From sequence record PZ171035.1: 64,000 nucleotides of DNA; one strand, given 5' to 3'. Source of the DNA: a phage. The notes beneath the pieces were generated by a model that saw nothing but the letters and a program-made list of their open reading frames with translations, searched no databases and was not told the DNA's origin. Shown one piece after another: positions 1,858 through 39,714 of this stretch. The position numbers and the translations under genes are program-made. Numbering within the stretch: the first letter of the stretch is position 1; each line of letters opens with the position of its first letter.

Positions 1858-1891
1858 TCAGCAATCCCATTAGCTTTAGGAGAGTAAGTAA

Positions 1892-8959: not shown

Positions 8960-9002
8960 TAGTCATAACCAAGAAGCAACATTTAATCTGGAGAGTAAAT
9001 AA

Positions 9003-23480: not shown

Positions 23481-24284
23481 ATGTCATTGTTCAGTAATCT
23501 GAAAGAAAAAACCAAAAACGTTGAAGCTGTTAAAGACTCCCTTGGTGGCGGTGGCTTCGGTGCAAAAGAGTCCGATATCTACACTGGTACTGTAAAAGTA
23601 GCCTATGTAGGTAAAGCTGACTCTGGTGCAGACTGGATGCAGTTAATCATTGAAGACCTGAAGAATTCTGATGGAGTACCTGCTGGTGAGTTCCGTGCTC
23701 AGGTGTACTTCACTTCTGGTAATGCTAAAGGCAATAAGCCGACTTACGAGAAGAACGGTAAAGAATACTTCCTGCCTGGCTACACTGTCATTAATGACAT
23801 GATGCTGATGGCTACCGGTACGGAACTGCCTGAAGCTGACTTCGAAGAGAAGATCGTTAAAGTCTATGACTTCGATACTAAAGCAGAAGTTAATAAATCT
23901 GTCATGGTTCCAGTTGACCTGGTAGGCCAGACTGTTACCTTCGCTCTGGAAAAAGTTCTGGAAAACAAGCAGGTTAAAGGTGACAACGGTTACGTTGACT
24001 CCGGCGAAACTCGTGAAGTAAACGAGATTCAGAAAGTGTTTCATCCGGAACTGCTGGTCACAGTTGTCGAGGCTCAGGAAGCAGAGAAGGCTGAGAAAGA
24101 ACTGACTCCGGAACTAGCTGTATTCTATGCAGCATGGTTGGAAAAGAACAAAGGTAAAACCCGTGATAAGACCAAGGGTTCTGCTGGTGGTAATGGTAAA
24201 GGTGGCTTGCCTCCTAAACCAGGTGCAGGTGCTGGCACAGGTACTACTCCAGCCGGTGGTAAATCTCTGTTCGGTAAACGTTAA
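23481..24284 (+). CDS. ssb: single-stranded DNA-binding protein (N4-type SSB)
   Basis: 267 aa, close to the 265 aa recalled for N4 SSB; Gly-rich C-terminal tail; position between primase region and resolvase. Confidence 0.5.
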   Translation: MSLFSNLKEKTKNVEAVKDSLGGGGFGAKESDIYTGTVKVAYVGKADSGADWMQLIIEDLKNSDGVPAGEFRAQVYFTSGNAKGNKPTYEKNGKEYFLPGYTVINDMMLMATGTELPEADFEEKIVKVYDFDTKAEVNKSVMVPVDLVGQTVTFALEKVLENKQVKGDNGYVDSGETREVNEIQKVFHPELLVTVVEAQEAEKAEKELTPELAVFYAAWLEKNKGKTRDKTKGSAGGNGKGGLPPKPGAGAGTGTTPAGGKSLFGKR

Positions 24285-24838
24285 TGAAAATCCCAATTGT
24301 TGGTGCAGACATTAGCCTCCGCAATTGGGGATTAGCTCGTGGGATGCTGGACATTGAGTCCGGCGTCTTCGAGCAGGTCGAACTTAAACTGGTTCAAACT
24401 GAAGTTGACCACAACAAACAAGTTCGAACCAACTCCAAAGATATACAAGCTGCCCATGATTTGTTTCTTGGTTGTGAGGAATGGTTACGGCCTGCTAAAG
24501 CAGTATTCGTAGAAGTACCAGTAGGCTCTCAGTCTGCTAATGGTATGAAATCCTATGGAGTATGCGTAGGATTAATAGGTGCATTTCGTGCATTGGGTTG
24601 TCCAATCTTTGAAGTATCCCCAATTGAAAACAAACTTGCACTGGTCGGTGATAAAACTGCATCTAAAGACACGATGATTCGTGCTGCTCATGCCATCTAT
24701 CCCGAAGCCAACTGGCTCACGGATAAGAAAGGCAAACTTCTGAATAAGAATGAGCACTTAGCAGATGCAATCGGTGCAATCCATGCTGGTGTAAATCTCC
24801 CAGCTTTCCAGAACCTCATTAAGTTATTAAAGGCGTAA
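24284..24838 (+). CDS. RuvC-like Holliday junction resolvase
   Basis: N-terminal IVGADIS, FVEVP, C-terminal EHLADAIGAIHA matching the RuvC D/E/D/D layout. Confidence 0.5.
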   Translation: MKIPIVGADISLRNWGLARGMLDIESGVFEQVELKLVQTEVDHNKQVRTNSKDIQAAHDLFLGCEEWLRPAKAVFVEVPVGSQSANGMKSYGVCVGLIGAFRALGCPIFEVSPIENKLALVGDKTASKDTMIRAAHAIYPEANWLTDKKGKLLNKNEHLADAIGAIHAGVNLPAFQNLIKLLKA

Positions 24839-24839
24839 T

Positions 24840-25292
24840 ATGCAAATCATTTTGAACCAGTCCGAAGTAGAAGCTGCTGTACAGGCTTATGTTGATGATC
24901 AAATCAATCTTGCTGGTGACATTAATATTGTCATCAATGCAGATGGTACTGCCTCCGTTGGTATCAACGAAGAGGTGAGTCATGAAGATGACACTCCACC
25001 CTTGGTAGAGAAGAAAACTCGTCGTTCCCGTAAAAACCCTCAAGAAGCTAAGCATCGTCCGGTAGAACCGGAGCCAGAAGAAGTAGTTGAAGAGGCAAAG
25101 GTAGAAGAAACCCAGACCTCTACTGGTGGTCCGAACGGGAATTCTACGCCGGAACCTGAAGAAGCAGTAGCTGAACCAGAAGCACAAGAAGAAGTTGTGC
25201 AGGAAGAGGATATGAAAGAAGACCGTGAGCTTCCTCCGGAAGAACGACCGGTAACGAAGCCTTCACTGTTCGCTGGCCTTAAACGTAGTTAA
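24840..25292 (+). CDS. acidic hypothetical protein
   Basis: 150 aa, Glu-rich C-terminal half. Confidence 0.45.
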   Translation: MQIILNQSEVEAAVQAYVDDQINLAGDINIVINADGTASVGINEEVSHEDDTPPLVEKKTRRSRKNPQEAKHRPVEPEPEEVVEEAKVEETQTSTGGPNGNSTPEPEEAVAEPEAQEEVVQEEDMKEDRELPPEERPVTKPSLFAGLKRS

Positions 25293-25300
25293 TCTGGTAG

Positions 25301-25462
25301 GTGGCTCAGAAGCTGCTGCTATTTGTGGTAGTGTTCGTAATTCTGATGCTATTGCTTATCAGGATTCTGGACGTGTCGGCTCCATACATAGCATTTATCA
25401 TCACTGTGCTTATACTTTGGAAACTCAGTGATAAAAACGGTGGTGACAAGCCGCCAGAGTAA
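25301..25462 (+). CDS. candidate small hydrophobic membrane peptide (below ORF-track length cut-off)
   Basis: GTG 25301 (or ATG 25346) to TAA 25460-25462; predicted ...LLLFVVVFVILMLLLIRILDVSAPYIAFIITVLILWKLSDKNGGDKPPE; followed 12 nt later by a 14-bp perfect hairpin. Confidence 0.3.
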   Translation: MAQKLLLFVVVFVILMLLLIRILDVSAPYIAFIITVLILWKLSDKNGGDKPPE

Positions 25463-25473
25463 CAACAACAACC

Positions 25474-25513
25474 GAACCAGTGGACTTTATTACTCCCCGA
25501 AGTCCACTGGTTC
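25474..25513 (+). repeat. 14-bp perfect inverted repeat (hairpin), 12-nt loop
   Basis: GAACCAGTGGACTT-TATTACTCCCCG-AAGTCCACTGGTTC. Confidence 0.8.
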
Positions 25514-26557
25514 AATCTAAACTAAGCGGAAAAGTTAGCTTTTTCTTGGGTGTAGAACCTGTTGAAGGAAACAAAGAATTTCACATTGAATAGTTAATAT
25601 CGTGAAGGGTTCTGTTAGAATCCTTTGAGATAGGAACTCCTATCATAACTATTCTTAACTTAATCATTGCCGTATGGCACTGACGCTAGGGGTGGCCCCC
25701 CCATCCGTCAGGTAGACTATTTTAAGAATGGATTATCACAGCAAATGTAAAGCAACATTCGGGTTAATCAATGGCCTCTCCCTATAGGGGCCATTTCTGA
25801 ATCTTAGGCTATATCCCAAAGGTTAGTATCTTTGGGATAAGGCTTCAGATCCCTTATCAACTAACGCTCGTGTTGAGCATTTTAATCACATAAGCCCCTA
25901 TATGGGCTGGGTTAAATGTCGGATAGCAAAGCTACCTACAGCATCGAATTGTTAGGTCTTACATGTAATATAGGGTATAAAGGGAGGACTCGTCCCCTCC
26001 CTCCTATTATGACATCCTATCAATGAGTACATTAAGCTAACGTGCGGAGGTTTACACTGTAGCCGGTGTAGGTGGAGAAGACGGCAGGGTAGCTACCTGT
26101 GCTTAGTGTACTCTTTGATAGTTTTCGTAAGCGATTATGCGGTTTTTTAGAAACGAACCAATAACATAAATGCAAACGATGATGTTGTTCTGATGGCGGC
26201 GTAATAGCCTGTAAGTCAGCAAGGTCTTCCGACTCCTTGTAAGCAAATTCGGCGCAGTGGCCCGCTGTGATTAATAATGGGCACACAACAGGTAAGAGCA
26301 TTTAGGCTACTGAGAAATCATCCGAGGCAATCAGACCTATCTTCTGTTAAGTGCTCTTTCCGTTGTGGTGAATGCGCAGGCTGATGCGCAGTGGGACGTG
26401 GCTGACTCACGAGGATGGCTCAAGCGAATAAGCAAGCTCGACGCCGCCGAATAAGCGCCTTATGCCGGAGATCAGCACCGGCCACCACAACAAGTCCAGA
26501 CGATATCTGAGTGACTATAAAAACAGATGGAGCCAGGTGGAATCCCTGGCAACTAAT

Positions 26558-26623
26558 TCCGGTGTAGGTACTAGTGTCGTGCACGGCATGAGCATTCTGG
26601 TTCGAGTCCAGACGCCGGAACCA
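26558..26623 (+). ncRNA. tRNA-like element (T-arm plus acceptor minihelix with encoded CCA)
   Basis: Acceptor TCCGGTG/CGCCGGA, T-arm TCTGG-TTCGAGT-CCAGA, discriminator A, CCA; only 63 nt before CCA and no canonical D/anticodon arms found. Confidence 0.3.
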
Positions 26624-26625
26624 AT

Positions 26626-26749
26626 TACCAGTTGCACGAGATGGCTTGACATGTTCAAGTTTGGACTAAGTGTGACACCGCTAGATTGGAGGGCTGCTGC
26701 GGTAAGCTATAGACTCCAACCGGAGGTTCGAATCCTTCACTGGTAACCA
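26626..26749 (+). ncRNA. tRNA-like element with ~48-nt extra internal sequence
   Basis: Perfect 7-bp acceptor TACCAGT/ACTGGTA, T-arm GGAGG-TTCGAAT-CCTTC, discriminator A, CCA; 121 nt between acceptor strands. Confidence 0.3.
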
Positions 26750-27332
26750 ATTCAAAGTAGCACTCGTTTATACTTCCCGGTATTCAAAGACACATTCTTG
26801 TGTGAGTGTTACTCTGAATTGTAAGAATTATGGGGGTAAGTCGTAAATACGACAGCGTAAGTACCAGATGAAACCTCTGGACGCCCCTACCATATTTGAG
26901 ATGTAACAGTTAAATCCGTACCCGGAAGTGCTATTCTAGATACGCTGCCAATGTGGAGACGGTAAGGCTGTACAGGACTCGGACTCCCACCTCAAACCAA
27001 AGTCGCCAGATACTTATGGCAAACGGGTAGTAACGAACTAGTCATTCGTCAAACGCCCACCCTATTATGAGTCAGCAAGAACGCCTTCACTTAAACTTAA
27101 ACAAAAAAGCTTAACGCAATAATTATGTAGGGGTATGTAAGGATTGCGAAGAAGGAGCCAGTTAAAGTCTGGCATGACTCACCTAATTGAGGCTGTACTT
27201 ATGTTCTACAGTAGGTGCACAACACTGGGCTGCTACACCCAGAGGTACAGCCTCACCCTATTATGGGTAGCCTATACTAGTTATAGGGCAGATAATCTGT
27301 GGCAGTGTAAGGCTGCACTACCCTTTCATTAA

Positions 27333-27408
27333 TACCCGGTAGGCTTAGTGGTAAAGCCCCACTAGTAAACCAACTAGGACGCAGGTTCGAATCCTGTCCG
27401 GGTAGCCA
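27333..27408 (+). tRNA. tRNA (anticodon not resolved)
   Basis: Acceptor TACCCGG/CCGGGTA, D-arm GGCT-TAGTGGTAA-AGCC, T-arm GCAGG-TTCGAAT-CCTGT, discriminator G plus CCA; anticodon arm pairs only with a shifted, non-canonical register. Confidence 0.55.
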
Positions 27409-27413
27409 TTTAT

Positions 27414-27498
27414 GCCCACTTAGCTCAGTGGTAGAGCGCAGGAAAGCTTCGAGAGAACAAGGTGTCTGTGGTCACTGGTTCAAATCCAGTAGTGGGTA
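27414..27498 (+). tRNA. tRNA, 85 nt, probably long-variable-arm type (anticodon not resolved)
   Basis: Acceptor GCCCACT/AGTGGGT, D-arm GCTC-AGTGGTA-GAGC, T-arm ACTGG-TTCAAAT-CCAGT; no CCA encoded; no canonical anticodon stem found by eye. Confidence 0.5.
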
Positions 27499-27813
27499 CT
27501 TATTTGCTGCAATATTCCCATAGGGAATGGTGTCGTATACGCCACCTAGTTTCTGGTGAAACTCCAGATGCAGCAATCCATTCAGCAGTAACATAGTCCT
27601 GATTGCATTGCACTCTAAAGACAACACTGGTAAGACAGTCCAGTGGCTGCTATTGTATTGATATTCCCCTCGACGGGAATTTCGCTAGTGAAGGTAACAC
27701 TTAAAAATCCAAACCCACGTCTTACTGCTATCGGGCTATCAACCCACAGTCGCTTAACACACTAGTGGTAGTAGTTTGACGACCTAGCCTCGTTAGCTGC
27801 GTTAAAGCTACTA

Positions 27814-27850
27814 AGTCCCCTAGAGCCGCCCCTCTAGGGGACTTTTTTAT
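27814..27850 (+). terminator. rho-independent terminator (12-bp perfect stem)
   Basis: AGTCCCCTAGAG-CCGCCC-CTCTAGGGGACT followed by T6. Confidence 0.75.
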
Positions 27851-27877
27851 TTGAGTATTAATAACCGGATAATCAAT

Positions 27878-28036
27878 ATGATTGACCTAATCTCAACCCC
27901 GTATGCCTATGAGGTAACGGACAACCGAGGGCATAAGTACTTGGTATTTGTAGGTAGCGTAGCCTATAACAACGCAGTCATGTTTAAGTACAAACTCAAA
28001 CCACTCTATGAGGCTAATAATGGCAACAGTAAGTAA
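27878..28036 (+). CDS. hypothetical small protein
   Basis: ATG 27878; ORF-track start at 27851 is TTG inside the terminator tail. Confidence 0.35.
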   Translation: MIDLISTPYAYEVTDNRGHKYLVFVGSVAYNNAVMFKYKLKPLYEANNGNSK

Positions 28037-28400: not shown

Positions 28401-28482
28401 TCCAAAGGTGTAAGGTAGTTTTTACCGAAAGGTACTGAACTACCCGACAAAGTAGTAAGGCTCTAGAAGCCGAAACAAAACA

Positions 28483-28510
28483 AGCCCTCCTAGCGAGGGC
28501 TTTATCATTT
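28483..28510 (+). terminator. rho-independent terminator
   Basis: AGCCCTC-CTAGC-GAGGGCT followed by TTATCATTT. Confidence 0.55.
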
Positions 28511-29310: not shown

Positions 29311-29315
29311 AATAG

Positions 29316-29345
29316 AAGCCCCTCATTAGAGGGGCTTTTTCATTT
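29316..29345. terminator. bidirectional rho-independent terminator between convergent operons
   Basis: AAGCCCCTC-ATTA-GAGGGGCTT with T-rich tracts on both strands; sits between + strand stop (29310) and vRNAP stop (29344). Confidence 0.7.
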
Positions 29346-32300
29346 AGTTAGTAAGATTGAGCCACGGGTTCAGGGTATGAGCACGTAAGCCTTGACCGAA
29401 ACCGAAGGAGTAACCAAGATTGCCCTGTGCAGCAATACTAAAGATGTTGTCCTGAATAGGCAGGCCAACGTTACCAAACATGGTAGGGGTTGGGGCCAAC
29501 ATAGCCATAGCAGCATGAACTGGGTTATTACGAATCATGGACACTGCAACTTTTGCAGAACGAATCTTAAAGTTGTAGAACCACATCAGACCAACGCTTT
29601 CCATATACCCACGGAAACGACCAGGCAGACGGTCATAGTTAATGAACTCTTCCGTTACACGTCCCAGTGCTTCTTCGCGAGTCTTACCTTTACGCTGAGT
29701 TAGTTCATCATAGATGATTGCTTTAGCAATAAAGTCAGAGTACTCAACCGTCTTCTGGATACTCTGGAACAAAGCAGTATCCTTAGTGATAAGTGCATAA
29801 CGACCTGCGTTACGTACAGACTTAGGCAGCTTATCGGCTAGCTTATCCATATATTCGTGAAGTTTACCTTCAGTAATCAGAATGTCATCACGCCCAATAC
29901 CAGCATCTGCAATTGAAGAGAACTCACCAGCTTCCAATAGAGGCCAGATACTCAAACGCTTATGGCTATCCGTAATGGACTGAATCTCAGCCTTAAGTTT
30001 ACGAATCTGGTTCGGGTTAGTAGCTGCACGTAATTCTGCTTCTGCATCTACCTGACGCAGGCGAGATTTCAGGTACTGGTTAATCTCAGCAGTCTTCTGT
30101 GGAATGCTCTTAGCAATGTTCTTAACCGGTACACCACGAGCAACCATCTGGTAAAGGTTAGCCAGGAAGTTAACAGCAGGTACAACTACTGACTTAACCA
30201 CAATCAGAGTCTTAGCTTCTTTAACTAAGTTTTGAACCAGGTTCTCTCCACCCATTACATATTTATAAGCACGGTTACCGAAGACACCCAACATAGCTTT
30301 CTTGAAGGTATCCAGTGTTTCTGGGGACCAACGAGAATTACCAGACCAGGCATCACCAACGGAAGCTGCACGATAACCTAAGGCATCATTAAGCATGTCA
30401 CGACGTACCCACAACTCACCTGGACCAAACAGACTTTCTGCTTTCTGACGAGTTTCACTATTCATCAGCTTAAGTGCATCGGCAGTTACTGGGTCCAGTT
30501 TAGAACCAAGAAGGTTAACGTACTGGGACTTATTAGAAGCAGACATCTTAATGTCGTTCTCATACATGCTATGCAGGTTCTCAATTAGCATATCGTTGAA
30601 ACGCTGAGCCTTAGCCTCTTCTACCTGACGACCACGCCATACACCGATTGCACGAGCAAGATGGTTCTCACCTTCAATGTGCTTCAGCATGTTAGGGTCA
30701 ATAGATTGCTCGTAAGCAACTACATTACCATTAGCATCATATACAGGCAGCAGAGGTTCATTACCACGTTCACCACGAGCAAGTGCTTTAGTGATACGGT
30801 CTACAGAAGGCTTGTCAGTGATACGACCCGCTACCATGGTTCCCATCGTAAAGCCTGTACCAAGGTCTACACCACCAGCAGTATTTCGAACGTTCTGTAA
30901 GATACCCTGTGAGAATGGGGCCTGTGCCTGTACTGGTGCGAAGTAGTAGCTACGTGCTGGACCACGGTTAGCAGAGCTACCTTGATAAGTACCCAGACGT
31001 ACATAGGACTTCTCAATCAAATCACCAAACTGGCTATCTTCAGCAACAATCAGATTAACACCCTGTTTAGTCTCACTAGGGATATGCCCTTTGTACTGGT
31101 TCAGGGTTGCACGCATATCAGATTTGGCTTTAGCCATTTCATCTTTACGCTGACCAACCAGGTAAGAGGTGGCAAAGTCCATCCCATCAACTTCTGTCTG
31201 AGCCAGTGAAGATAACATCTCACGGTCGGACTTGTTCATTGCTTCCAGTGCATACAGGGTAATCAGTTTATCCAGTTGAGCTACATCTACAGTAGAGCGT
31301 GCAGCCTGACGTTCACCCAGCATACGGGAGATTGCAGTAGCATTACGCAGCAGGTTTTTACCGACAGTACCATTAATCATGTACTGAGCCAGTTGCTTAG
31401 ATTTACGGTTAATCAGAGGCCAGTTACGACCAGCTTGTTTCTGCAAATCTGCTTCCAGCTTATTCACTTCACGGTCAACAATCTTCTGGTCAGTCAGTAA
31501 GTCACGGATTTCAGCCAGTGACATAGTGTCACGCAGGACAGCTAAATCTGTTTTACCCATACCAGTATGCATTACTTTCCACTCATCATTAGTCAGCTTA
31601 CGGCTGAACTTAGATGCGATAGTAGTAGGCAGATGTTCACGGAACTGCTGACGGTCTGCCTGCACCTGTGCACGTACTGCTTTAATCAAATCGTATACAG
31701 AAGCATTGCTCTTAGTACGACCGGTTAAGTCATTAACCAGGTCATGGAAAGGTTGCCATACCTTACCCTGGTTCATTGCAGCCATAACACCTTCAGCTAC
31801 GATTGCACCATTCTTCTCTGTAGCAATAGCAGCTACCAGTTGTGCAGCATGAGCAGCACCTTTAACCAATGGATTATTGGTATTGGCTGCAACTTCACGA
31901 GCACCTTCCAAAGCACGGGTAGATAGTACATCAATAGAATCCACCAGATACTGGTTAGCACGGTCAATAGCATTACCAGTAGGAGTAGCAACGGAATCAT
32001 AGAAGGATTCTGCATTAAGACTGGTCTGCATAATCGTCTGAGCCAGTGCATCCATACCTTCCTGTACGTTAGTAGCTTTAGTATCACCTGCTACACGAGC
32101 ATTCAGACTAGCCATTGCAGCAGTACCAATGTTAGTCAGCATTGCATCAACGGTATTACCTGATTTCTTATCTGCTTTCATGACAGGAATGTCAGCCAGT
32201 ACTTTACGTACTTCTTCACTTACCATTGCCAGACCAACAAAGGTAGGCAGTAAAGAAGATCGACCTTGTGCATCAAACTCAATGTTGTTAGCACCCATGA

Positions 32301-35300
32301 TGGTATCGAACTTCTGCTGTGCATAATAACGATCAGCAGGGTTAGTACTATCTGGGTCAGCCATAAATGCTTCGACGGTCAGATTCTTAGTAACATGCGT
32401 GTAGTATTCCTGTGCACGAGCCATAGCAGCAGGGTTAACAGCAGCCTCGGTAGCCAGTGCAGCAACAATATTGGTAAAGAGACGCTGTTCCTGCATATTC
32501 ATGGTGAAGCCATGAGCCTGAACATCACGAGTTACTTTAGTTGCATTTACTACTGCATCAGAGAACTTACCTTTGCGAATTACTTGCTGTACTGGTTCTG
32601 AACCAATGTAGTTAGTAATTAGCTTATCAAAGGTTTTCCCTAGCTCTTCCAGACGAGTATTTTCACCATACGCTTTGTTATGGAACAGAGTAGTATCTTT
32701 GGCTACAGCAGCAGTAGGAGCTTGCCCACGCATTACTACAGCAGAGTTAAACAGTAAGCCAGAGAACATATCTTCTGCATTAGCAGGAGCTTTCTTACGT
32801 CCAAATACCAGACGTTTGATTGCTTCATATACAGCCTGAACCATAGTTTTAAGTGCAGTGGTTTTCTTCTGCTTACTAATCAGTTCTCGGTTGGTTAAAC
32901 CCCAAGCCATGTACTCGTTCAGTGCAGCAGCTTTAGCCATTGCTGGTTCAATAAAGCCATTGGATAGGTGACCATTAATGGTATTCAGTGCATCAGCATA
33001 TGCTTCTCGTACTGCCGGAGATTCATCCCTAACATCCAGAGCACGGAACTGATTCATCAGGTCTTCGATGTTCTGGACTGCTTCATTAGGAGTGCCTTCA
33101 TAGTGAGCCAGTACAGATTCAAAAGTAGAAGCATGTACCAATTCATGAACCAGAGTCTCTAAGGAAGGGGTAACTAAGTAGATGGTTTTATCTTCAAAGT
33201 TAGTCCAGCCGTATGCATTACCAGCTTCAGCAGCTTCAATATCTTCCGGTGCTGGGCGAGTAATGTTCTTCTCAATAGCATAGGCATCCAATTGAGCAGG
33301 TGTACCGTAAACAACTTTATAGTCTTTAGCAGCAAGGGATTTCTGTATTTCTTTCAATACTTCTTGCTGTTCAGGAGACATCTCTTTAGCCAGTTTAGTA
33401 ATGGCAGTGTTAGACAGCAGACGTACACCAGACTTCAGTACACGACCAACCTGTTCCATCGCCGGTACTTCTTCCACTGGTTCTGCTTTAGTAGCACGTA
33501 CTGCTTCACGACGCTTATTTAATTCAGCATCAAACAGTTCGTTCAGCTTAGCTACTTGCTGGTCTACAGTAAGACCTTCCAGAGAGATTTTACCGTTGTT
33601 CACATAAGGAGCACCTACGGCAGCCATCTGGTCAACAGTGACTTGTACCTGGTCCATTACCTTGTGACGAATATCTACACCCAGAGCAATGTTACGCAGG
33701 TTACGTTCAATCTGCTCAGCACCGACACGTAACAGGTCATCAGTAGCACCCTCACGTTGGTCATACTCCAGAGCAGACTTAGCGATAGCCTGTTTGGTTT
33801 CATCAGACAGTTTACTGAAGTCTACGTTCTTCATGAACTTAGCGTAGGAGTCATAAACATTCTTGATAGGGTTACCCTGCCAGGAAGTATATACAGCCTC
33901 ATTAGCTTTGCGACTTGCATCAGTGATGTCATTGATACCAATGTTCATACCATCAAAGATTTTCAGGGTATTCTTCGGAGCACCTTTCATAGTAGAAAGT
34001 GTCTGCATCATCATGCCATCACCAGTACCGATGGTCATAAATGGAATACCTGCAACACCTGCCTGTGAAGGAGCATAAATGCTCATTGGCACACGCATAC
34101 GGTCATCTAAGTTAGTAGCCAGTACTTGGTTAGCAACATCAGTATTCTCACTACCAGCAATGTAGAAAGTCTGTGAACCAGTCTCAATCATTGGAGCCAG
34201 TGAAGATAATGATTCCTGGATTTCATTCAGTTCTTTCTGCGTTAAGAAATCACCTTTCTTCCAGGTTGGGTCTTTTTCTTTTTCTGCCAGCTTAGCCTGT
34301 ACTGCTTGCTGGAACATATCCTGCAATACCAGAGATTGAATCTGGGTAGCCTTCTGCAAGTTCTCGGTAGAGTGCATCAGACCTTCACCAACAGTATTAC
34401 GGATACCAGTACGCATTGGTTCAACGAACAGGTGGAGCATGTTCTCTTGTAAGTTCTTCAGGGCATTACCGGATACGGTAAATTTCTGGGGGTCTAACTT
34501 ACCAGTCAGAGCACCATCTACTTGCTGAATAGACAACTCACCTTTACGCATAACTGGAACATTACCAGTCAGTGCTTCCATAGAAGTAAGGAAAGTATCC
34601 AACATAGCCTGAGCATCAGCTTCAGACGCAGCCTCCTTACCAAACATTGCCATAGCTGGGGAAATGCTAGGGTCAGCAGCTCGTGCTTGCAGAACGTCAC
34701 TGAAGCGTTCGTAGATGGTATCAGTAATTGCACTGACCATCTTGCCAGCAATACCACGAGCACCAGAACCATAGATGGTAATGGTCAGTGGGTTTTTAGC
34801 AATACCACGTTTCAGGTCCAGAGTACCGTCTTCATTCAGGTTAAAGTCTTTAATGAACAAGTCCATTAACTTCTGGAGATGATTCATCTGGCTCATAACT
34901 GGAACGTTGTTACGGTAAGTAGTACGTAACTCATTCAGTGCTTGTTGAAGACCATTGGTAGATGCTTCATACAAGTCAACATTATCGTCGATAGAACAAT
35001 GTTCGTTCATCGTTTTACCAGCACGACCAAAGAACAAACCACCTTTGGCAGTGTTCTTAATCCAGTCTGGAGTGAACTTACCACCAGTCATTAATACCAT
35101 TGCGTTGATTGGGCCGTTGGTTACACCATCAGCTTCAACGTACAGTGGAGTAGTAAAATTAGCACGGTCATCACTGTTCAGGTAACGGGCATATTCCATC
35201 AGAGCCATGAGAGCTACGAAGGATTTATCACTACCCAGAGAGGTCTTCAGGATGTCTACTGCATCTGTCGGTAAGTGACCAGACTTATCAAACTCAACCA

Positions 35301-38300
35301 TCATATCAACAGCAGGTTTCAGTTTACCTTCCAGAGCTTTAGTTAACTCTTCAGACATAACTTCACGGGACATTTTATGTACCTTGATGCCTAATGCCTG
35401 AGCCAGACCTAACTGGAAGTCAGAGAACGCTTGGCTGTTTTCATTACTCAAGTCGATAGTAGAGAAGGTTGGTAGGATTGCTTCACGAACCAGCTTACTG
35501 GATTGTGGGTTGTTCTTACCAAGCATCTGCATACGACCTACACGGGTCATGTTATAACCGTAGTGGATAGGTGTATCCAGACCATTCTCTTGTTCTCGTA
35601 TCTGATTAATTACACCGAACAGAGAATCATATGCCATAGACACGGACAGGTTTTTACCTTCCAAAGATTTAGCAGTGTTCGCGTTCAGTAATTCTGGATT
35701 AAGAGTACCAGCACCCATCAGTTCCAGAATGTTGTCACGCCCCAATGCTTCATAGAAGTTAACCATTGGCATATGTACACGGAACTCGGTAGCCTGTTCA
35801 GCTTTCAGTGCAGCTTTCTGTTCAGGGGTATTCTTAACAGCAGGGTTACGCAACTGAGTCTGAGCCACAGAAGGAATGTCATCACCAAAGTACATTTTCT
35901 CTTCTGGTTCTAAGAGGACAGCTTCCTCAATAGCAGTAGGGAATTTATTAATGGCATCATTGTCATCCAACTTCTCAATGGTATACAGACCAACAGTCTT
36001 ATTGGAGTCTGGGTCAATCTCAGACACATCCAACATAGACTCTTTAACTTCACCCATCTCAATGAGAGAAGACAGAATCTCTGTAGCCATTGCCATTGGG
36101 ATACCTTTGGTATAACCCAGCGGTGCATTAGGATTACGATTCAAACCCCAGTAGGATTCAATCTTCTGAGCCAGTGAGTTAGTAGCTTCAACCAGGGTCT
36201 GGGCATTCTCGAACTCAGCCAGAATACCTTCTGGTAACAGAGATGCTTCTACGCCTGTAATAGCAGCTACGTCTTTCATATCTTTAATGGCAGCATTCTG
36301 TGTAGTAGTCAGTCGCCATTGCAAACCAGCAAGCACAGCAGTCTCTAACAACTGGTCGTTGAACTTAAAGGTATCCCCATCTTGTTCAACTATATTCAGC
36401 AGTTTGCCACCTACCCAACGGTTAGCTTCAGTACCTTCTGCAAAACGTTTACCAACGTTCTTATTAGCAAGGAACTTAGCCAGACGTTCAGACAAAGTAG
36501 TCTTCAGAGTTTCACCAAAGTCCATTAAGTCCTGATAACGCTTAATCACATCACTAGTGAGAGCGTTATTTTCTTTTTGAGTGAATGCCTCAAAGCGAGC
36601 AGCAGAAGACAGTGCTTGCTTAATATCAGTCAAAGGAGATTCTGAACCAATGGTACGGGACTTAGGTTCTTCCGGTAAGGTAAATGCTTTCAGGAACTGG
36701 TTCGGTGTCTTTTCATTGTTATAGACAGGGAACACTGTTTCCATTTCTGTTTTGGTTTCAGCTACTTCCTGGATGGTATCCTCATTCTTGAGAATAGCAT
36801 CTACTGTTTCAGGCTTAGTAGTAGAGACTTCTTCTGTTTTTGGACTAGTCTCCTTAGTAGGAGCAGTCTTATTTTCTACCACAGGTTTAGCTTTAGGCTG
36901 TACAGTAGTAGTGTCCTCTTGCACTGGTGCAGGAGATTCATCAACCTGATTCACTGGTTCATTAGTCTGTTGAGACTGAGTGGCATCAAGACCACCTTGA
37001 CGGAACTCTTTAACTACCTGGGCAGCAGGCTTGTTCAGACGTGAATCCAACGAGGTAACTTTCACATGAGAAACATTAAGCTCCGGGTAAGCCGTAGCAA
37101 GTGCATTAGCAATATCAGCTACGGTTTTGGCTTCCAGTCCTACTTGCTGGGCAAACTTAACAGACTTGGTATCGTAAGGATTGACACCGAGGCCAGTACG
37201 ACTACGTACCCATTCACGGGAAGGCGAGAGAGCCTGATAATGAACAGACTTATTCTTATCCGCATTCCCCGAAATCAGATGCTCATTCAACGCTCCGACC
37301 TTATTCTGCATGTGCTGGGCGAACTTCATAAAGTCGCTCAGATAAGCGGAGGCCAAATCGAAGTTACCAGAGTTATACGCAGAACGAATGCGTTTCGCAT
37401 GTTGCAACGCAGAGTACTGTCCTTCATTAGAACGAGACTCGTCGGTTTTAATCTGTTTACTAACAATGTCTTGAGGACGTAAGCCTAGTTCTTCTGCTTT
37501 AGCGTCGAACTCACGTGCACCCTGTAACAAGGCAGCAGCAGATTGCAGGGCAGCACGTTGACGATTACCCAATGTAATCTTACCTTCACTTGCATGTTTC
37601 AGAACCATGTTCACTGAATCCGCATCCAGTACTTCTGGAGATACATCAGCAGCCATAGCAATATTGTTTGCTTGGGCTTGGTTAGCTTCTTCAGTAGCTT
37701 TCAGCTTACCTGCTTCAGCCTGTTCCTGAATCATGGAATGGATAGCACGGAATGCACGAAGTACTTTCGGGGTATTCTGTACGTTAGCCATCAGGCCGGA
37801 GAATTGGTCTACGATTGCAGCAGCAGGAGAACCCTGTTCAAGATTAGCCAGAGCACCTGGGTCACGGTTAATGAAGCTATCCATAGACATGATGTTGTCA
37901 TACATCTGGATTGCAGCTTCCATTTGAACGTTAGGGTCTTCGGCAGTATTAACCAGGTCAGCCATCTTCTGAATAGCTTCAACACGGTTAGTGGAACCAG
38001 AAACAGCTTCACGGATTGCCGGGTTAGCTTGTTCCAATTCTACCGGGTCAAACTTCATTGCCTGAGTTAAGTCAGCAGCATACTGGGTAGCAGCAGCTTT
38101 CTCTTCTGGAGTGATGTCCATTGCATCCACTGCTTCTTGTACAGTTGCCTGTGCTTGTTCTGCCTGAGCAGCAGCTTCCTGTGCAGCAGCATTAACCGTA
38201 GCATCAGCTACAGGGGATGCTTGTTCATTACGCTTAGCAACTTCTTCACCACGTTGAATCAGGATGTTAGTAAGAGGGGATGCAGCTTTTGCTAATGTTT

Positions 38301-39714
38301 TGCCAACCAGAGAAGCACCAGCCATGGTAGTACGAAGAGCAGGGCCAGCAGAAGCACCAACTGCTTTAACAGTTGTACCAGGAGCTTGAGCAACCCCAGC
38401 ACTACCGAATCCATAAAGTGCACCCAGACCTGCTTGCTCACCAACCCCTTTGAGGGTGTCACGGGATGCATCAACGTTTTCTTTGATTGCAGTATTCTGT
38501 GCGAACTGACCAAAGCCGGATTGAATACCTTCTTCGACTGTTTCACGTAGCATATTAGAACCAGCACCTGCCAGTGAACCTACCTTAAGTGGGTTAAGTT
38601 CAAAGCGAGATACCAGTGGACCGGTAGCAGCAGCAACTGGAGCAGTTAAGCCAGCAGCAATGATACCTGTTTCAGATGCAGTCTGACGACGTGCTTCATC
38701 AGGAGATAAACCATCAGCAATATGTTGTTGGTAAACAGGAGACTTACTTGCCAATTCTTGATGGGACATCTTCATGATTTCAGAAGCAGTCTGTTGGTAT
38801 GCACCACCAGCTTCCATACCACCGATTGCAATAGCAGGTGCAGCAACACGACCGGCAGACAATGCAACCTGTGCAGGACGTGAACCTAACCCAGCAGCTA
38901 AGGTAATACCCTTAACAGCTTTATCACCACCTACCATTACTTTACCAAGTGCAGATACACCACGAATAAGAGGACCACCAGTAAAGAGAGAACCAACACC
39001 TTCACTCAGTCCGTCAGAGGCAGCCATACCATTATCAAGTGTGTTAGCAACAGAATCGAAAGCGTCACGACCAATACGAGACAGGGAGGCAACCAAATCG
39101 CTGTCCCCATTTTTGATATCTTGTTCATAAAGTTTCTGGTTCTTTTGAGCAGAAATCTGGTTCTGATTCTGAACAACTTTACGGGTAGCATTCAGTGCAT
39201 CAGACTGTAGATTGTGTACACCTTCATTCAACCAATCCATCCCGGAAGCAATGGATGCCCCGGCATTATCATTGACCAGACCTGTGCCAAGAGCAGCAAT
39301 GCCCCCAAGGGTATTAGCAACACCAAGACCAACACCAGAAAGAGTATCGCCAAATGCTTCTGCGTTAGTACGCTGTTTAGATAAGTCCTGACGTACAACA
39401 TCAGCAGCATTAGCTCGGCTATTAATAATCTGTAGACCTTGTTCATTACCGTACTTATTAATGATTTCTAAAGGGGAGGCTTGAGTGAAATCTGCCTGAA
39501 GTGAACCTGGTTCGAATGCACCGATTCCAAGATTACCTACTCGTCCGGTCTGGAGATTGTAAGCATTCTCTGGGGTTAATTGGAAAGGGCTTTGCCCTTG
39601 TGCAGCTTGCTTCTGAGAGGTTGCAGTAGAGACATCGACTTGCTTAGCATTAGTGATGCTGTCTGCGAAACCTGCCAGACGGTCAAATGTTGACATAGCA
39701 TGTTTCCTGTTCAA
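29344..39714 (-). CDS. virion-encapsidated giant RNA polymerase (N4 vRNAP-like)
   Basis: Single 3456-aa ORF at the distal end of the late operon; size and position are the hallmark of N4-like phages (N4 vRNAP is ~3500 aa). Confidence 0.8.
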   Translation of the reverse strand: MNRKHAMSTFDRLAGFADSITNAKQVDVSTATSQKQAAQGQSPFQLTPENAYNLQTGRVGNLGIGAFEPGSLQADFTQASPLEIINKYGNEQGLQIINSRANAADVVRQDLSKQRTNAEAFGDTLSGVGLGVANTLGGIAALGTGLVNDNAGASIASGMDWLNEGVHNLQSDALNATRKVVQNQNQISAQKNQKLYEQDIKNGDSDLVASLSRIGRDAFDSVANTLDNGMAASDGLSEGVGSLFTGGPLIRGVSALGKVMVGGDKAVKGITLAAGLGSRPAQVALSAGRVAAPAIAIGGMEAGGAYQQTASEIMKMSHQELASKSPVYQQHIADGLSPDEARRQTASETGIIAAGLTAPVAAATGPLVSRFELNPLKVGSLAGAGSNMLRETVEEGIQSGFGQFAQNTAIKENVDASRDTLKGVGEQAGLGALYGFGSAGVAQAPGTTVKAVGASAGPALRTTMAGASLVGKTLAKAASPLTNILIQRGEEVAKRNEQASPVADATVNAAAQEAAAQAEQAQATVQEAVDAMDITPEEKAAATQYAADLTQAMKFDPVELEQANPAIREAVSGSTNRVEAIQKMADLVNTAEDPNVQMEAAIQMYDNIMSMDSFINRDPGALANLEQGSPAAAIVDQFSGLMANVQNTPKVLRAFRAIHSMIQEQAEAGKLKATEEANQAQANNIAMAADVSPEVLDADSVNMVLKHASEGKITLGNRQRAALQSAAALLQGAREFDAKAEELGLRPQDIVSKQIKTDESRSNEGQYSALQHAKRIRSAYNSGNFDLASAYLSDFMKFAQHMQNKVGALNEHLISGNADKNKSVHYQALSPSREWVRSRTGLGVNPYDTKSVKFAQQVGLEAKTVADIANALATAYPELNVSHVKVTSLDSRLNKPAAQVVKEFRQGGLDATQSQQTNEPVNQVDESPAPVQEDTTTVQPKAKPVVENKTAPTKETSPKTEEVSTTKPETVDAILKNEDTIQEVAETKTEMETVFPVYNNEKTPNQFLKAFTLPEEPKSRTIGSESPLTDIKQALSSAARFEAFTQKENNALTSDVIKRYQDLMDFGETLKTTLSERLAKFLANKNVGKRFAEGTEANRWVGGKLLNIVEQDGDTFKFNDQLLETAVLAGLQWRLTTTQNAAIKDMKDVAAITGVEASLLPEGILAEFENAQTLVEATNSLAQKIESYWGLNRNPNAPLGYTKGIPMAMATEILSSLIEMGEVKESMLDVSEIDPDSNKTVGLYTIEKLDDNDAINKFPTAIEEAVLLEPEEKMYFGDDIPSVAQTQLRNPAVKNTPEQKAALKAEQATEFRVHMPMVNFYEALGRDNILELMGAGTLNPELLNANTAKSLEGKNLSVSMAYDSLFGVINQIREQENGLDTPIHYGYNMTRVGRMQMLGKNNPQSSKLVREAILPTFSTIDLSNENSQAFSDFQLGLAQALGIKVHKMSREVMSEELTKALEGKLKPAVDMMVEFDKSGHLPTDAVDILKTSLGSDKSFVALMALMEYARYLNSDDRANFTTPLYVEADGVTNGPINAMVLMTGGKFTPDWIKNTAKGGLFFGRAGKTMNEHCSIDDNVDLYEASTNGLQQALNELRTTYRNNVPVMSQMNHLQKLMDLFIKDFNLNEDGTLDLKRGIAKNPLTITIYGSGARGIAGKMVSAITDTIYERFSDVLQARAADPSISPAMAMFGKEAASEADAQAMLDTFLTSMEALTGNVPVMRKGELSIQQVDGALTGKLDPQKFTVSGNALKNLQENMLHLFVEPMRTGIRNTVGEGLMHSTENLQKATQIQSLVLQDMFQQAVQAKLAEKEKDPTWKKGDFLTQKELNEIQESLSSLAPMIETGSQTFYIAGSENTDVANQVLATNLDDRMRVPMSIYAPSQAGVAGIPFMTIGTGDGMMMQTLSTMKGAPKNTLKIFDGMNIGINDITDASRKANEAVYTSWQGNPIKNVYDSYAKFMKNVDFSKLSDETKQAIAKSALEYDQREGATDDLLRVGAEQIERNLRNIALGVDIRHKVMDQVQVTVDQMAAVGAPYVNNGKISLEGLTVDQQVAKLNELFDAELNKRREAVRATKAEPVEEVPAMEQVGRVLKSGVRLLSNTAITKLAKEMSPEQQEVLKEIQKSLAAKDYKVVYGTPAQLDAYAIEKNITRPAPEDIEAAEAGNAYGWTNFEDKTIYLVTPSLETLVHELVHASTFESVLAHYEGTPNEAVQNIEDLMNQFRALDVRDESPAVREAYADALNTINGHLSNGFIEPAMAKAAALNEYMAWGLTNRELISKQKKTTALKTMVQAVYEAIKRLVFGRKKAPANAEDMFSGLLFNSAVVMRGQAPTAAVAKDTTLFHNKAYGENTRLEELGKTFDKLITNYIGSEPVQQVIRKGKFSDAVVNATKVTRDVQAHGFTMNMQEQRLFTNIVAALATEAAVNPAAMARAQEYYTHVTKNLTVEAFMADPDSTNPADRYYAQQKFDTIMGANNIEFDAQGRSSLLPTFVGLAMVSEEVRKVLADIPVMKADKKSGNTVDAMLTNIGTAAMASLNARVAGDTKATNVQEGMDALAQTIMQTSLNAESFYDSVATPTGNAIDRANQYLVDSIDVLSTRALEGAREVAANTNNPLVKGAAHAAQLVAAIATEKNGAIVAEGVMAAMNQGKVWQPFHDLVNDLTGRTKSNASVYDLIKAVRAQVQADRQQFREHLPTTIASKFSRKLTNDEWKVMHTGMGKTDLAVLRDTMSLAEIRDLLTDQKIVDREVNKLEADLQKQAGRNWPLINRKSKQLAQYMINGTVGKNLLRNATAISRMLGERQAARSTVDVAQLDKLITLYALEAMNKSDREMLSSLAQTEVDGMDFATSYLVGQRKDEMAKAKSDMRATLNQYKGHIPSETKQGVNLIVAEDSQFGDLIEKSYVRLGTYQGSSANRGPARSYYFAPVQAQAPFSQGILQNVRNTAGGVDLGTGFTMGTMVAGRITDKPSVDRITKALARGERGNEPLLPVYDANGNVVAYEQSIDPNMLKHIEGENHLARAIGVWRGRQVEEAKAQRFNDMLIENLHSMYENDIKMSASNKSQYVNLLGSKLDPVTADALKLMNSETRQKAESLFGPGELWVRRDMLNDALGYRAASVGDAWSGNSRWSPETLDTFKKAMLGVFGNRAYKYVMGGENLVQNLVKEAKTLIVVKSVVVPAVNFLANLYQMVARGVPVKNIAKSIPQKTAEINQYLKSRLRQVDAEAELRAATNPNQIRKLKAEIQSITDSHKRLSIWPLLEAGEFSSIADAGIGRDDILITEGKLHEYMDKLADKLPKSVRNAGRYALITKDTALFQSIQKTVEYSDFIAKAIIYDELTQRKGKTREEALGRVTEEFINYDRLPGRFRGYMESVGLMWFYNFKIRSAKVAVSMIRNNPVHAAMAMLAPTPTMFGNVGLPIQDNIFSIAAQGNLGYSFGFGQGLRAHTLNPWLNLTN

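What the first reader, a model, noticed from the sequence alone, without database searches (positions are those of the whole stretch)
25301..25513. Unannotated small hydrophobic peptide followed by a 14-bp perfect inverted repeat
A 38-53 codon ORF, below the ORF-track cut-off, encodes a strongly hydrophobic peptide with a charged C-terminal tail. It is followed 12 nt later by a 14-bp perfect hairpin with a 12-nt loop that is not followed by a U-tract, so it may be a protein-binding site or RNA processing element rather than a terminator.
Basis: seen in the sequence. Interest (0 to 1): 0.4.

Follow-up and report, generated by a model that had tools for sequence, protein, structure and literature searches.

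The report
Missed membrane-protein gene plus conserved RNA hairpin
In this N4-like phage, a small membrane-protein gene that most annotations miss ends the DNA-replication operon and is followed by an evolutionarily maintained RNA hairpin with a fixed 10-base loop, whose binding partner and function are unknown.

Summary
Both parts of the observation are real and under selection. The window is an N4-like coliphage of the genus Gamaleyavirus.

**The ORF (25301-25462, + strand, 53 codons)**
- It directly follows the SSB/gp46/gp47 replication genes.
- Its frame is intact in all 21 unique relatives, including N4. dN/dS is 0.23-0.37 against the more diverged relatives (up to about 0.67 for near-identical pairs).
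- It belongs to a family of 44-69-residue hydrophobic proteins (central A-P-Y motif, charged tail) found after the gp47 homologue in several N4-like subfamilies.
- In 28 of 28 unique members the start codon lies -4 to +19 nt from the upstream stop, usually with no Shine-Dalgarno. That points to translational coupling.
- It matches PHROGs 19025 and 23833 (function unknown). It is not annotated in N4 or G7C.

**The hairpin (25474-25513)**
- It is a 15-bp stem with a 10-nt loop, consensus AAUACUCUCC.
- Ten of 15 pairs covary, while 8 of 10 loop bases are invariant.
- There are 60 G·U cells against 4 A·C cells, so the + strand is the one that folds.
- It occurs once per genome, only in Enquatrovirinae, and has no Rfam match.
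- It sits where other N4-like lineages carry a canonical terminator, but it lacks every terminator hallmark.

Most likely it is a 3'-UTR stem-loop that is recognised by sequence and marks or stabilises the operon's mRNA end. This is moderately interesting.

The parts
24840..25292 (+). gp47 homologue (150 aa, function unknown). It is the upstream cistron, and its stop codon lies 8 nt before the small ORF's start.
   Evidence: ORF list; PHROG 7641 at E = 1e-64; syntenic with N4 gp47 and G7C gp47; stop-to-start gap measured.
25301..25462 (+). Small membrane-protein gene: 53 codons with a GTG start (ATG-GTG in N4). The product has about 36 hydrophobic residues with an invariant central D-V-S-A-P-Y and a charged K-P-P-E tail. 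It is the last cistron of the replication (middle) operon.
   Evidence: Frame intact in 21 unique CDS variants; dN/dS 0.23-0.37 against the more diverged relatives; variable columns by codon position 15/5/21. N4-versus-window amino-acid identity is 62%, similar to SSB (61%) and far above gp47 (29%). Matches PHROG 19025 at E = 9e-10. Family HMM hits in other subfamilies. Met16 is not conserved (Ile in N4, Leu in L031), so the 38-codon form is not the conserved product.
25463..25473 (+). A/C-rich (CAA)n spacer between the stop codon and the hairpin. Its length differs among relatives (about 4-14 nt, often by CAA units).
   Evidence: The function is not established. It could be an unstructured spacer that lets the terminating ribosome clear the stem.
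25474..25488 (+). 5' arm of the hairpin (15 nt, including the closing U).
25489..25498 (+). 10-nt loop ATTACTCCCC. The family consensus is A-[A/U/C]-U-A-C-U-C-[U/C]-C-C, with 8 of 10 positions invariant in 28 unique sequences. The window differs from the majority form at two positions.
25499..25513 (+). 3' arm of the hairpin. Sequence homology with most relatives ends 1-3 nt beyond it.

Best explanation
**The ORF.** It is a genuine gene for a small inner-membrane protein, probably a helical hairpin of two short hydrophobic helices joined at the invariant A-P-Y turn. It is the last cistron of the rightward middle operon (primase, Sak4-like protein, SSB, gp46, gp47). It is translated by termination-reinitiation coupling to gp47, not from its own Shine-Dalgarno site.

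**The inverted repeat.** It folds in the + strand transcript, in the 3' untranslated region of this gene, into a 15-bp stem with a 10-nt loop of fixed sequence. It occupies the position where other N4-like subfamilies have an ordinary intrinsic terminator. In the N4/G7C/KP8/Moo19 subfamily (Enquatrovirinae), more + strand genes lie downstream: tRNAs, a homing endonuclease, gp48 and gp49.

**Proposed mechanism.** The hairpin does not terminate transcription. It is recognised by an unidentified protein through its loop and through the invariant A-U / G.U step 9-10 bp below the loop. It marks and protects the 3' end of the replication-operon mRNA once that mRNA is cut away from the downstream tRNA/accessory RNA, acting as a barrier to 3' exonucleases or as a processing site.

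**Shown:** conservation of the gene, its coding pattern and the coupling geometry; the RNA structure, its strand, its uniqueness in the genome and the loop conservation; the difference from the genomes' own terminators.

**Inferred:** membrane topology, translation, the absence of termination, the 3'-end role, and the existence of a binding protein. The biochemical role of the small protein is unknown.
For: **Gene**
- The window is an N4-like Gamaleyavirus. The ORF follows SSB, gp46 and gp47 exactly as in N4 and G7C.
- The frame is open in all relatives. dN/dS is 0.23 against N4 (dS about 0.9) and 0.27-0.37 against the other diverged relatives. Second codon positions almost never vary.
- N4-versus-window conservation equals that of SSB and gp46 and far exceeds that of gp47.
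- An HMM built from six members finds 46 small ORFs at the same syntenic position in 85 diverse N4-like loci. These include unannotated ORFs in Erwinia phage phiEaP8 and Achromobacter phage Axy24.
- 18 of 25 aligned members match PHROG 19025 and 15 of 25 match PHROG 23833.
- In 28 of 28 unique members the start lies -4 to +19 nt from the upstream stop. Only 3 of 28 have an SD-like motif.

**Hairpin**
- 96.9% of cells are paired, 10 of 15 pairs show changes on both sides, and 0 of 500 shuffles reach the observed values. Slid-register controls collapse.
- Mean folding energy is -21.7 kcal/mol on the + strand against -16.2 on the - strand, and the + strand is more stable in 27 of 28 sequences.
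- There are 60 G.U cells against 4 A.C cells, and the inner 11 pairs are 100% paired on the + strand.
- The loop is invariant at 8 of 10 positions.
- There is a single copy in the window (69 bits; the next unrelated site scores 19.9). There is none in 387 kb of non-Enquatrovirinae N4-like loci and none in LUZ7.
- There is no Rfam match.

**Not a terminator**
- The same genomes carry many canonical terminators on the + strand, with 6-13-bp GC-rich stems, 3-6-nt loops and a T-tract. In the window these are at 27813-27844, 28482-28502 and 29314-29339. N4's early and middle regions have nine or more.
- In 13-15 of 26 unique non-Enquatrovirinae loci, the small ORF is followed or overlapped by such a terminator.
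Against: - There are no transcript-end, ribosome-profiling or proteomic data for any of these phages in this region, so translation and the 3'-end role are inferences.
- An exonuclease barrier needs no specific loop sequence. The strongest conserved feature (the loop and the A-U/G.U step) is therefore accounted for only by postulating an unknown binding partner.
- The AlphaFold single-sequence model gives one long helix (residues 2-46, pLDDT 87) rather than a helical hairpin. That model used no alignment and is not decisive.
- T7-like phage RNA polymerases could in principle respond to signals unlike canonical terminators.
Confidence: 0.55

Rival explanations
1. The hairpin is the transcription terminator of the middle operon. 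It would be an unusual, possibly factor-dependent, signal for the phage's T7-like RNA polymerase II.
For: It sits exactly where 13-15 of 26 other N4-like lineages have an intrinsic terminator after the same small ORF. It is very stable.
Against: It has no U-tract, a 10-nt loop and a 15-bp stem. Every recognisable terminator in the window and in N4's early and middle regions, which are transcribed by the phage polymerases, has a 3-6-nt loop and a T-tract. It is a single copy, so it is not a general terminator class. More + strand genes (tRNAs, gp48/gp49) lie downstream before the next canonical terminator.
Confidence: 0.12
2. The hairpin acts at the DNA level as a + strand single-stranded DNA hairpin or cruciform. 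Possible roles are a replication or primase signal, a recombination boundary, or the target site of the homing endonuclease that is often inserted next to it.
For: N4 biology already uses extruded DNA hairpins as promoters (PMC4496689). Homology between relatives breaks right at the 3' base of the stem, and an HNH gene starts 13 nt beyond it in many Gamaleyaviruses.
Against: Double-stranded protein-binding palindromes conserve arm sequence, whereas here the arms covary and the centre is fixed. The 60 G.U against 4 A.C cells show that only one strand is selected to fold, and G.T pairs are weak in DNA. The element is present and conserved in genomes that lack the endonuclease, such as N4, KP8, PW8 and the window. 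There is no composition-skew feature at this position.
Confidence: 0.1
3. The hairpin is a translational operator. A protein bound to it would occlude the ribosome-binding site of the gene immediately downstream, as in the T4 gene 43 or MS2 coat-protein operators.
For: In most relatives an SD and ATG follow within 6-18 nt of the stem. A sequence-specific loop on a variable stem is the classic operator design.
Against: The downstream gene differs between phages (an HNH endonuclease, or unrelated small ORFs). It is absent in the window, PW8, EC1-UPM and N4, where the hairpin is equally conserved.
Confidence: 0.08
4. The hairpin is released as a small stable RNA. Its loop (UACUCUCC) would pair with GGAGAGUA-type ribosome-binding sites and modulate translation in trans.
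For: The loop complements a recurrent RBS, GGAGAGTAA, found at window 1879 and 8990 and at N4 1516, 7653 and 9928. The syntenic intergenic region of the N4-like phage LUZ7 produces abundant small RNAs late in infection (PMC9163698).
Against: The 8-mer count is not significant: 7 observed against 3.7 expected, and 5 of 100 shuffles reach it. The genes carrying this RBS are not orthologous between N4 and the window. The window's own loop has a U-to-C change that breaks the pairing while its RBSs remain GGAGAG.
Confidence: 0.07
5. The ORF is not translated, and its conservation reflects an RNA- or DNA-level function.
For: There is no Shine-Dalgarno and the start codon is GTG. A 17-nt stretch, GACGTGTCGGCTCCATA, is invariant even at synonymous sites. 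RNAalifold draws some structure through the ORF.
Against: Substitutions are concentrated at codon positions 1 and 3 (15/5/21) and dN/dS is well below 1. The hydrophobic profile and the A-P-Y motif persist at 18-36% amino-acid identity in other subfamilies. The stop/start juxtaposition is universal across the family. Pairs predicted inside the ORF are almost all invariant, so they are uninformative.
Confidence: 0.03

Closest known systems
Intercistronic or 3'-UTR mRNA-stabilising stem-loops (E. coli REP elements; hairpins left at phage T7 RNase III sites)
   Same: A stable stem-loop without a U-tract, placed just after a cistron at an operon or module boundary. It folds in the sense transcript. 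The expected role is to block 3' exonucleases or to define a processed 3' end.
   Different: It is a single copy rather than a repeated family. It is a perfect 15-bp helix with no internal loop. It has a 10-nt loop of conserved sequence plus a conserved A-U/G.U step, which a passive barrier does not need. No cleavage or stability data exist.
Intrinsic terminators that follow the same small ORF in other Schitoviridae subfamilies
   Same: The genomic position is identical, directly after (or overlapping) the stop codon of the homologous small membrane-protein gene.
   Different: Those have 6-14-bp GC-rich stems, 3-8-nt loops and a T-tract. In several of them the K-P-P-E codons form the 5' arm. 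The Enquatrovirinae element has none of these features and no sequence similarity to them.
Phage N4 virion-RNA-polymerase promoter hairpins
   Same: They come from the same phage family. They are hairpins whose stem identity is partly free while specific bases are recognised.
   Different: The promoters are DNA hairpins with a 5-7-bp stem and a 3-nt loop around a GC-rich heptamer, found at the left genome end (PMC4496689). Here the stem is 15 bp, the loop is 10 nt, the element is mid-genome and G.U pairs point to RNA.
Protein-binding RNA operators with a sequence-specific loop (MS2 coat-protein operator; T4 gene 43 operator, whose loop I recall as AAUAACUC)
   Same: A variable stem carries an invariant loop. 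In many relatives it is adjacent to a downstream ribosome-binding site.
   Different: The stem is much longer. The downstream gene is not conserved and is sometimes absent. No candidate binding protein has been identified. The resemblance to the T4 loop rests on memory, not on a test.
PHROG 19025 / PHROG 23833 (phage small proteins of unknown function) and small two-helix phage membrane proteins in general (class II holins, immunity proteins)
   Same: Direct HMM membership in the PHROGs. The size, two hydrophobic segments and charged C-terminal tail resemble small holin-like proteins.
   Different: It is encoded in the middle-phase replication operon, not in the late lysis cassette. There is no sequence match to any named holin, immunity or defence family. 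The function is unknown.

Membership tests
PHROG 19025 / 23833 (unknown function) | Significant match to the family profile HMM | tested here: met
   The window protein matches phrog_19025 at E = 9.1e-10 over residues 1-42. 18 of 25 family members match 19025 (best 3e-37) and 15 of 25 match 23833 (best 1.5e-32).
Schitoviridae post-gp47 small membrane protein (family defined here) | 44-69 aa, about 36 contiguous hydrophobic residues with a central A-P-[Y/F/A]-x-A motif, encoded directly after the gp47 homologue with a stop/start gap of -4 to +19 nt | tested here: met
   In the window the gap is 8 nt and the motif is S-A-P-Y-I-A.
Intrinsic (Rho-independent) terminator | GC-rich stem | tested here: met
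   15-bp stem, -24.8 kcal/mol.
Intrinsic (Rho-independent) terminator | Short loop (3-8 nt) | tested here: not met
   The loop is 10 nt (12 nt if the U.G closing pair is not counted). The site is not reported by the terminator scan.
Intrinsic (Rho-independent) terminator | U-tract immediately 3' of the stem | tested here: not met
   The tail is AATCTAAAC in the window, and no relative has a T-tract. Canonical terminators in the same genomes do have one.
N4 vRNAP hairpin promoter | 5-7-bp stem and 3-nt loop centred on a purine within a conserved GC-rich heptamer, located at the left genome end | tested here: not met
   15-bp stem, 10-nt pyrimidine-rich loop, mid-genome location. Promoter features are taken from PMC4496689.
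Any Rfam family | Covariance-model match at or near the gathering score | tested here: not met
   No hit at 25463-25520 in gathering mode or at E <= 1.
REP-like mRNA stabiliser | Stable extragenic stem-loop in the sense transcript downstream of a cistron | tested here: met
   (+ strand folding).
REP-like mRNA stabiliser | Dispersed repeated family within the genome | tested here: not met
   Single copy in 64 kb. The next-best unrelated site scores 19.9 bits against 69.1.
RNase III processing site | Cleavage by RNase III; typically about two helical turns of duplex, or a stem with an internal loop | not testable with these tools
   The stem is 15 bp (up to 19 bp in L041) with no internal loop. 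Cleavage cannot be assessed computationally here.
Translational operator of the downstream gene | Conserved linkage to the ribosome-binding site of one regulated gene | tested here: not met
   The downstream gene varies or is absent.
Holin (class II) or other lysis protein | Located in the lysis cassette, expressed late, homologous to a holin family | tested here: not met
   The gene lies at the end of the rightward replication operon. There are no Pfam, NCBIfam or PADLOC matches. Expression timing was not tested.

The most novel reading that the evidence does not exclude
The hairpin is a new cis-regulatory RNA specific to the N4/G7C/KP8 subfamily. It would be a docking site for a still-unknown phage or enterobacterial protein that reads the AAUACUCUCC loop and the A-U/G.U step one helical turn below it. 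That protein would decide the fate of the long middle transcript at the junction between the replication genes and the tRNA/accessory module, by regulated processing, read-through or decay. The coupled small membrane protein would be a near-universal N4-like factor, for example one that tethers the membrane-associated replication/transcription complex described for N4.
Probability: 0.25. Interest if true: 0.65.

Novelty: new member of a known kind. Interest (0 to 1): 0.45.

Why it matters
Phage N4 is a long-standing model for transcription and replication. Yet its reference record lacks this gene, which is as conserved as the essential SSB and is found across several N4-like subfamilies. The record also lacks the tRNAs next to it.

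The gene adds a membrane component to the replication operon of a phage whose middle transcription and replication are known to be membrane-associated.

The hairpin is a clean, covariation-supported RNA motif with no Rfam family. Its fixed loop predicts a specific binding partner, so it gives a concrete handle (pull-down experiments, loop mutants) on post-transcriptional control in N4-like phages, about which little is known.

It also shows that an intrinsic terminator was replaced by a different element in one subfamily.

Tried and rejected
- **Loop as a gene-specific anti-RBS.** GGAGAGTA sites lie before window ORFs 1892 and 9003 (the rIIA-like gene). N4's rIIA has a different RBS, the N4 genes that carry the motif are not orthologues of the window's, the 8-mer count is not significant, and the window's loop mutation breaks the pairing.
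- **N4 vRNAP promoter or LUZ7-type hairpin middle promoter.** The stem and loop sizes are wrong.
- **AAGACCTG as a recalled middle-promoter motif.** It is enriched (12 against 2.5 expected) but lies in frame as E/K-D-L codons, so it is not a signal.
- **A - strand terminator for leftward transcription.** The - strand would have a U-rich tail, but 60 G.U against 4 A.C cells show that only the + strand is selected to fold.
- **Replication origin from composition skew.** The only inflection is at about 29-30 kb, where gene orientation flips.
- **Homologue of the hairpin in LUZ7 or 66 other N4-like loci.** None was found.
- **Homologue in E. coli genomes.** None was found.
- **Distant protein relatives by whole-library searches.** These returned only truncated 38-aa calls, because gene callers miss this ORF.
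- **AlphaFold single-sequence model.** It gives one long helix and says nothing useful about topology. I did not run a fold search, because a 53-residue helix would give meaningless matches.
- **Conserved RNA structure inside the ORF.** The predicted pairs are almost all invariant and therefore uninformative.
- **Literature searches** for an N4 origin, N4 transcript maps or this gene found nothing that bears on the site.

Full report
**Context.** The window is an N4-like podophage. It carries a 3456-aa virion RNA polymerase gene on the - strand (29344-39714) and a rightward block of replication genes. Its closest relatives are Gamaleyavirus coliphages (G7C, EC1-UPM, PW8 and others) at 90-98% identity. 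The finding lies directly after the SSB (gp45, 23481-24284), the RuvC-like gp46 (24284-24838) and gp47 (24840-25292). This is the same order as in N4 and G7C.

**Checking the observation.** The ORF runs from GTG 25301 to TAA 25462 (53 codons), and an internal ATG at 25346 would give 38 codons.
- The perfect inverted repeat is 25474-25487 / 25500-25513, 11 nt after the stop codon.
- A U.G pair extends the stem to 15 bp around a 10-nt loop. Folding energy is -24.8 kcal/mol, z = -9.1.
- It is the longest perfect short-range inverted repeat in the window. My estimate of the chance expectation is about 0.005 per 64 kb.
- No T-tract follows the stem.

**The ORF is a gene.**
- The frame is open in every relative retrieved: 21 unique coding sequences from annotated phages, IMG/VR and metagenomes, including N4 at about 70% nucleotide identity.
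- Against N4, dS is about 0.9 and dN/dS is 0.23. Against the other diverged relatives dN/dS is 0.27-0.37.
- Variable alignment columns fall 15/5/21 on codon positions 1/2/3. This is the signature of a hydrophobic coding sequence.
- N4 and the window share 62% amino-acid identity here, like SSB (61%) and gp46 (69%) and unlike the neighbouring gp47 (29%).
- Met16 is Ile in N4 and Leu in one metagenomic variant. N4 has ATG-GTG at the upstream start. The 53-55-residue form is therefore the conserved product, not the 38-residue one.

**The family is wider than the subfamily.**
- I found unannotated ORFs at the same position in Erwinia phage phiEaP8 (49 aa...VAPYAAIIIVIIVLGWYFDKTEKPPE) and Achromobacter phage Axy24 (59 aa...ASAPYIALAIIAFVLWKL...).
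- A profile of six members then found 46 small ORFs of 44-69 aa (E < 0.01), about 1 kb downstream of the gp46 start, in 85 diverse N4-like loci.
- The shared features are a basic residue near the N-terminus, about 36 hydrophobic residues with a central A-P-[Y]-x-A, and a charged, often K-P-P-[E/D], tail.
- Most members match PHROGs 19025 or 23833, both of unknown function.
- Nothing matches in Pfam, NCBIfam or PADLOC.
- Large protein collections hold almost only truncated 38-aa calls.
- The ORF is annotated in KP8, E20 and EC1-UPM but not in N4, G7C, PW8 or Moo19.

**How it is translated.** Only 3 of 28 unique members have an SD-like motif. In all 28, however, the start lies -4 to +19 nt from the stop of the long upstream ORF, with 11 overlaps of the ATGA/TGATG type. 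In the window the gap is 8 nt. The AlphaFold single-sequence model (one helix, residues 2-46) does not settle the topology. A 36-residue hydrophobic stretch with a central invariant proline suits a helical hairpin better than a single span, but that is inference.

**The hairpin is a selected + strand structure.** In a gapless, loop-anchored alignment of 28 unique sequences:
- 96.9% of the 420 stem cells pair, and 10 of 15 pairs show changes on both sides.
- All five measures exceed every one of 500 shuffles, and all slid registers collapse.
- At least nine different inner-stem sequences occur.
- Eight of ten loop positions are invariant: A-[A/U/C]-U-A-C-U-C-[U/C]-C-C.
- The A11-U40 pair and the G12.U39 step, 9-10 bp below the loop, are also fixed, even in variants whose stem is longer (L041) or otherwise unrelated (L010).
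- There are 60 G.U cells against 4 A.C cells. The inner 11 pairs are 100% paired on the + strand. The + strand fold is more stable in 27 of 28 sequences.

This excludes a double-stranded DNA palindrome and a - strand element. It points to the sense transcript, or less likely to + strand single-stranded DNA.

**Distribution.** A covariance model finds one copy in the window (69 bits; the next unrelated site scores 19.9). It finds none in LUZ7 and none in 387 kb of other N4-like loci. There is no Rfam match and no E. coli match. The element always accompanies the small ORF in Enquatrovirinae (N4, Gamaleyavirus, Kaypoctavirus, Moovirus).

**What it is not, and what it replaces.** In 13-15 of 26 unique loci from other subfamilies, the small ORF is followed or overlapped by a textbook intrinsic terminator. 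In several of these the K-P-P-E codons form the 5' arm. The window itself has canonical + strand terminators at 27813-27844, 28482-28502 and 29314-29339. N4's early and middle regions, which the phage polymerases transcribe, contain at least nine. The element studied here differs from all of them in stem length, loop length and tail. More + strand genes follow it: tRNAs, an HNH endonuclease in many relatives and gp48/gp49. Homology between relatives breaks 1-3 nt after the stem, so the hairpin belongs to the upstream conserved block.

**Interpretation.** The best-supported reading is a 3'-UTR stem-loop that took the place of the operon terminator when downstream genes had to be co-transcribed. 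It would define or protect the 3' end of the replication mRNA and be recognised through its loop by an unidentified factor. The structure, the folding strand, the uniqueness and the non-terminator anatomy are shown. The 3'-end role and the binding partner are inferred.

Published long-read data for the N4-like phage LUZ7 show that middle transcripts read far rightward. They also show that the syntenic intergenic region yields abundant small RNAs (PMC9163698). That fits RNA-level activity at this junction, but LUZ7 lacks this motif.

**Rivals.** Unusual terminator, DNA-level hairpin, operator of the downstream gene, trans-acting anti-RBS loop and non-coding ORF are weighed in the rival list. 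Each has specific evidence against it.

**Verdict.** The gene is a new, mostly unannotated member of an uncharacterised phage protein family. The hairpin is a new RNA motif of a familiar general kind. Interest is moderate.

Noticed in passing
L001 3318-3997 (phage N4, about 32451-33130 of NC_008720): ARAGORN finds four tRNA genes (Asn, Ser, Thr, Pro) in the 1.5-kb gp47-gp48 gap of the N4 reference record. That record annotates only protein-coding genes.
   Followed up: partly
window 25514-28008; blocks 26493-26626, 26897-26989, 26096-26208: This is a 2.5-kb stretch without long ORFs. It holds blocks 91-96% identical to N4 or KP8, well above the roughly 70% nucleotide identity of the flanking genes. 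Block 26493-26626 ends in a tRNA-like 3' half (T-arm GGTTCGAGTCC, acceptor strand plus ACCA) that ARAGORN does not call. There is a sub-threshold Rfam tmRNA_permuted hit at 26101-26204 (31 bits; gathering score 47). These may be unrecognised structured RNAs.
   Followed up: partly
L002 3255-3752 (G7C gp47.1) and many IMG/VR and metagenome loci: In many Gamaleyaviruses an HNH homing-endonuclease gene starts 13 nt after the hairpin, and sequence homology among relatives ends at window ~25515. The 3' base of the hairpin is therefore a recurrent insertion and recombination boundary.
   Followed up: partly
L084, L083, L076, L114, L100, L053 (other N4-like subfamilies): The last codons of the small ORF (K-P-P-E plus the stop) form the 5' arm and loop of an intrinsic terminator, for example GCCCCCTGAGTAGGGGGC-TTTT. 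Protein tail and terminator are thus encoded by the same bases. Enquatrovirinae keep the K-P-P-E tail without the terminator.
   Followed up: partly
window 25370-25386: GACGTGTCGGCTCCATA (codons D-V-S-A-P-Y) is invariant from N4 to Gamaleyavirus, including five synonymous sites, although dS is about 0.9 across the rest of the ORF. There may be an extra nucleotide-level constraint. This is unexplained.
   Followed up: no
window 25594-25621 (+): A sigma-70-like promoter match (TTAATA, 16-nt spacer, TAGAAT, with an upstream TG) lies about 80 nt downstream of the hairpin and could start a separate transcription unit for the non-coding/tRNA region. It is a consensus match only.
   Followed up: no
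window 1879-1886 and 8990-8997; N4 (L051) 1516, 7653, 9928: GGAGAGTAA is a recurrent ribosome-binding site in these phages and is complementary to the hairpin loop. It sits on non-orthologous genes, and its count is not significant.
   Followed up: yes
window, 12 sites (e.g. 2085, 12530, 23653): AAGACCTG occurs 12 times against 2.5 expected. All sites inspected are in-frame Glu/Lys-Asp-Leu codons, so this is a codon-usage effect and not a signal.
   Followed up: yes
L050 2545-2942 (LUZ7 orf69-orf70 gap): The LUZ7 intergenic region that published long-read data report as a source of late small RNAs is syntenic with the region downstream of this finding: after the gp46-like gene and two small genes, and before the vRNAP gene. 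It has no homologue of the hairpin.
   Followed up: partly
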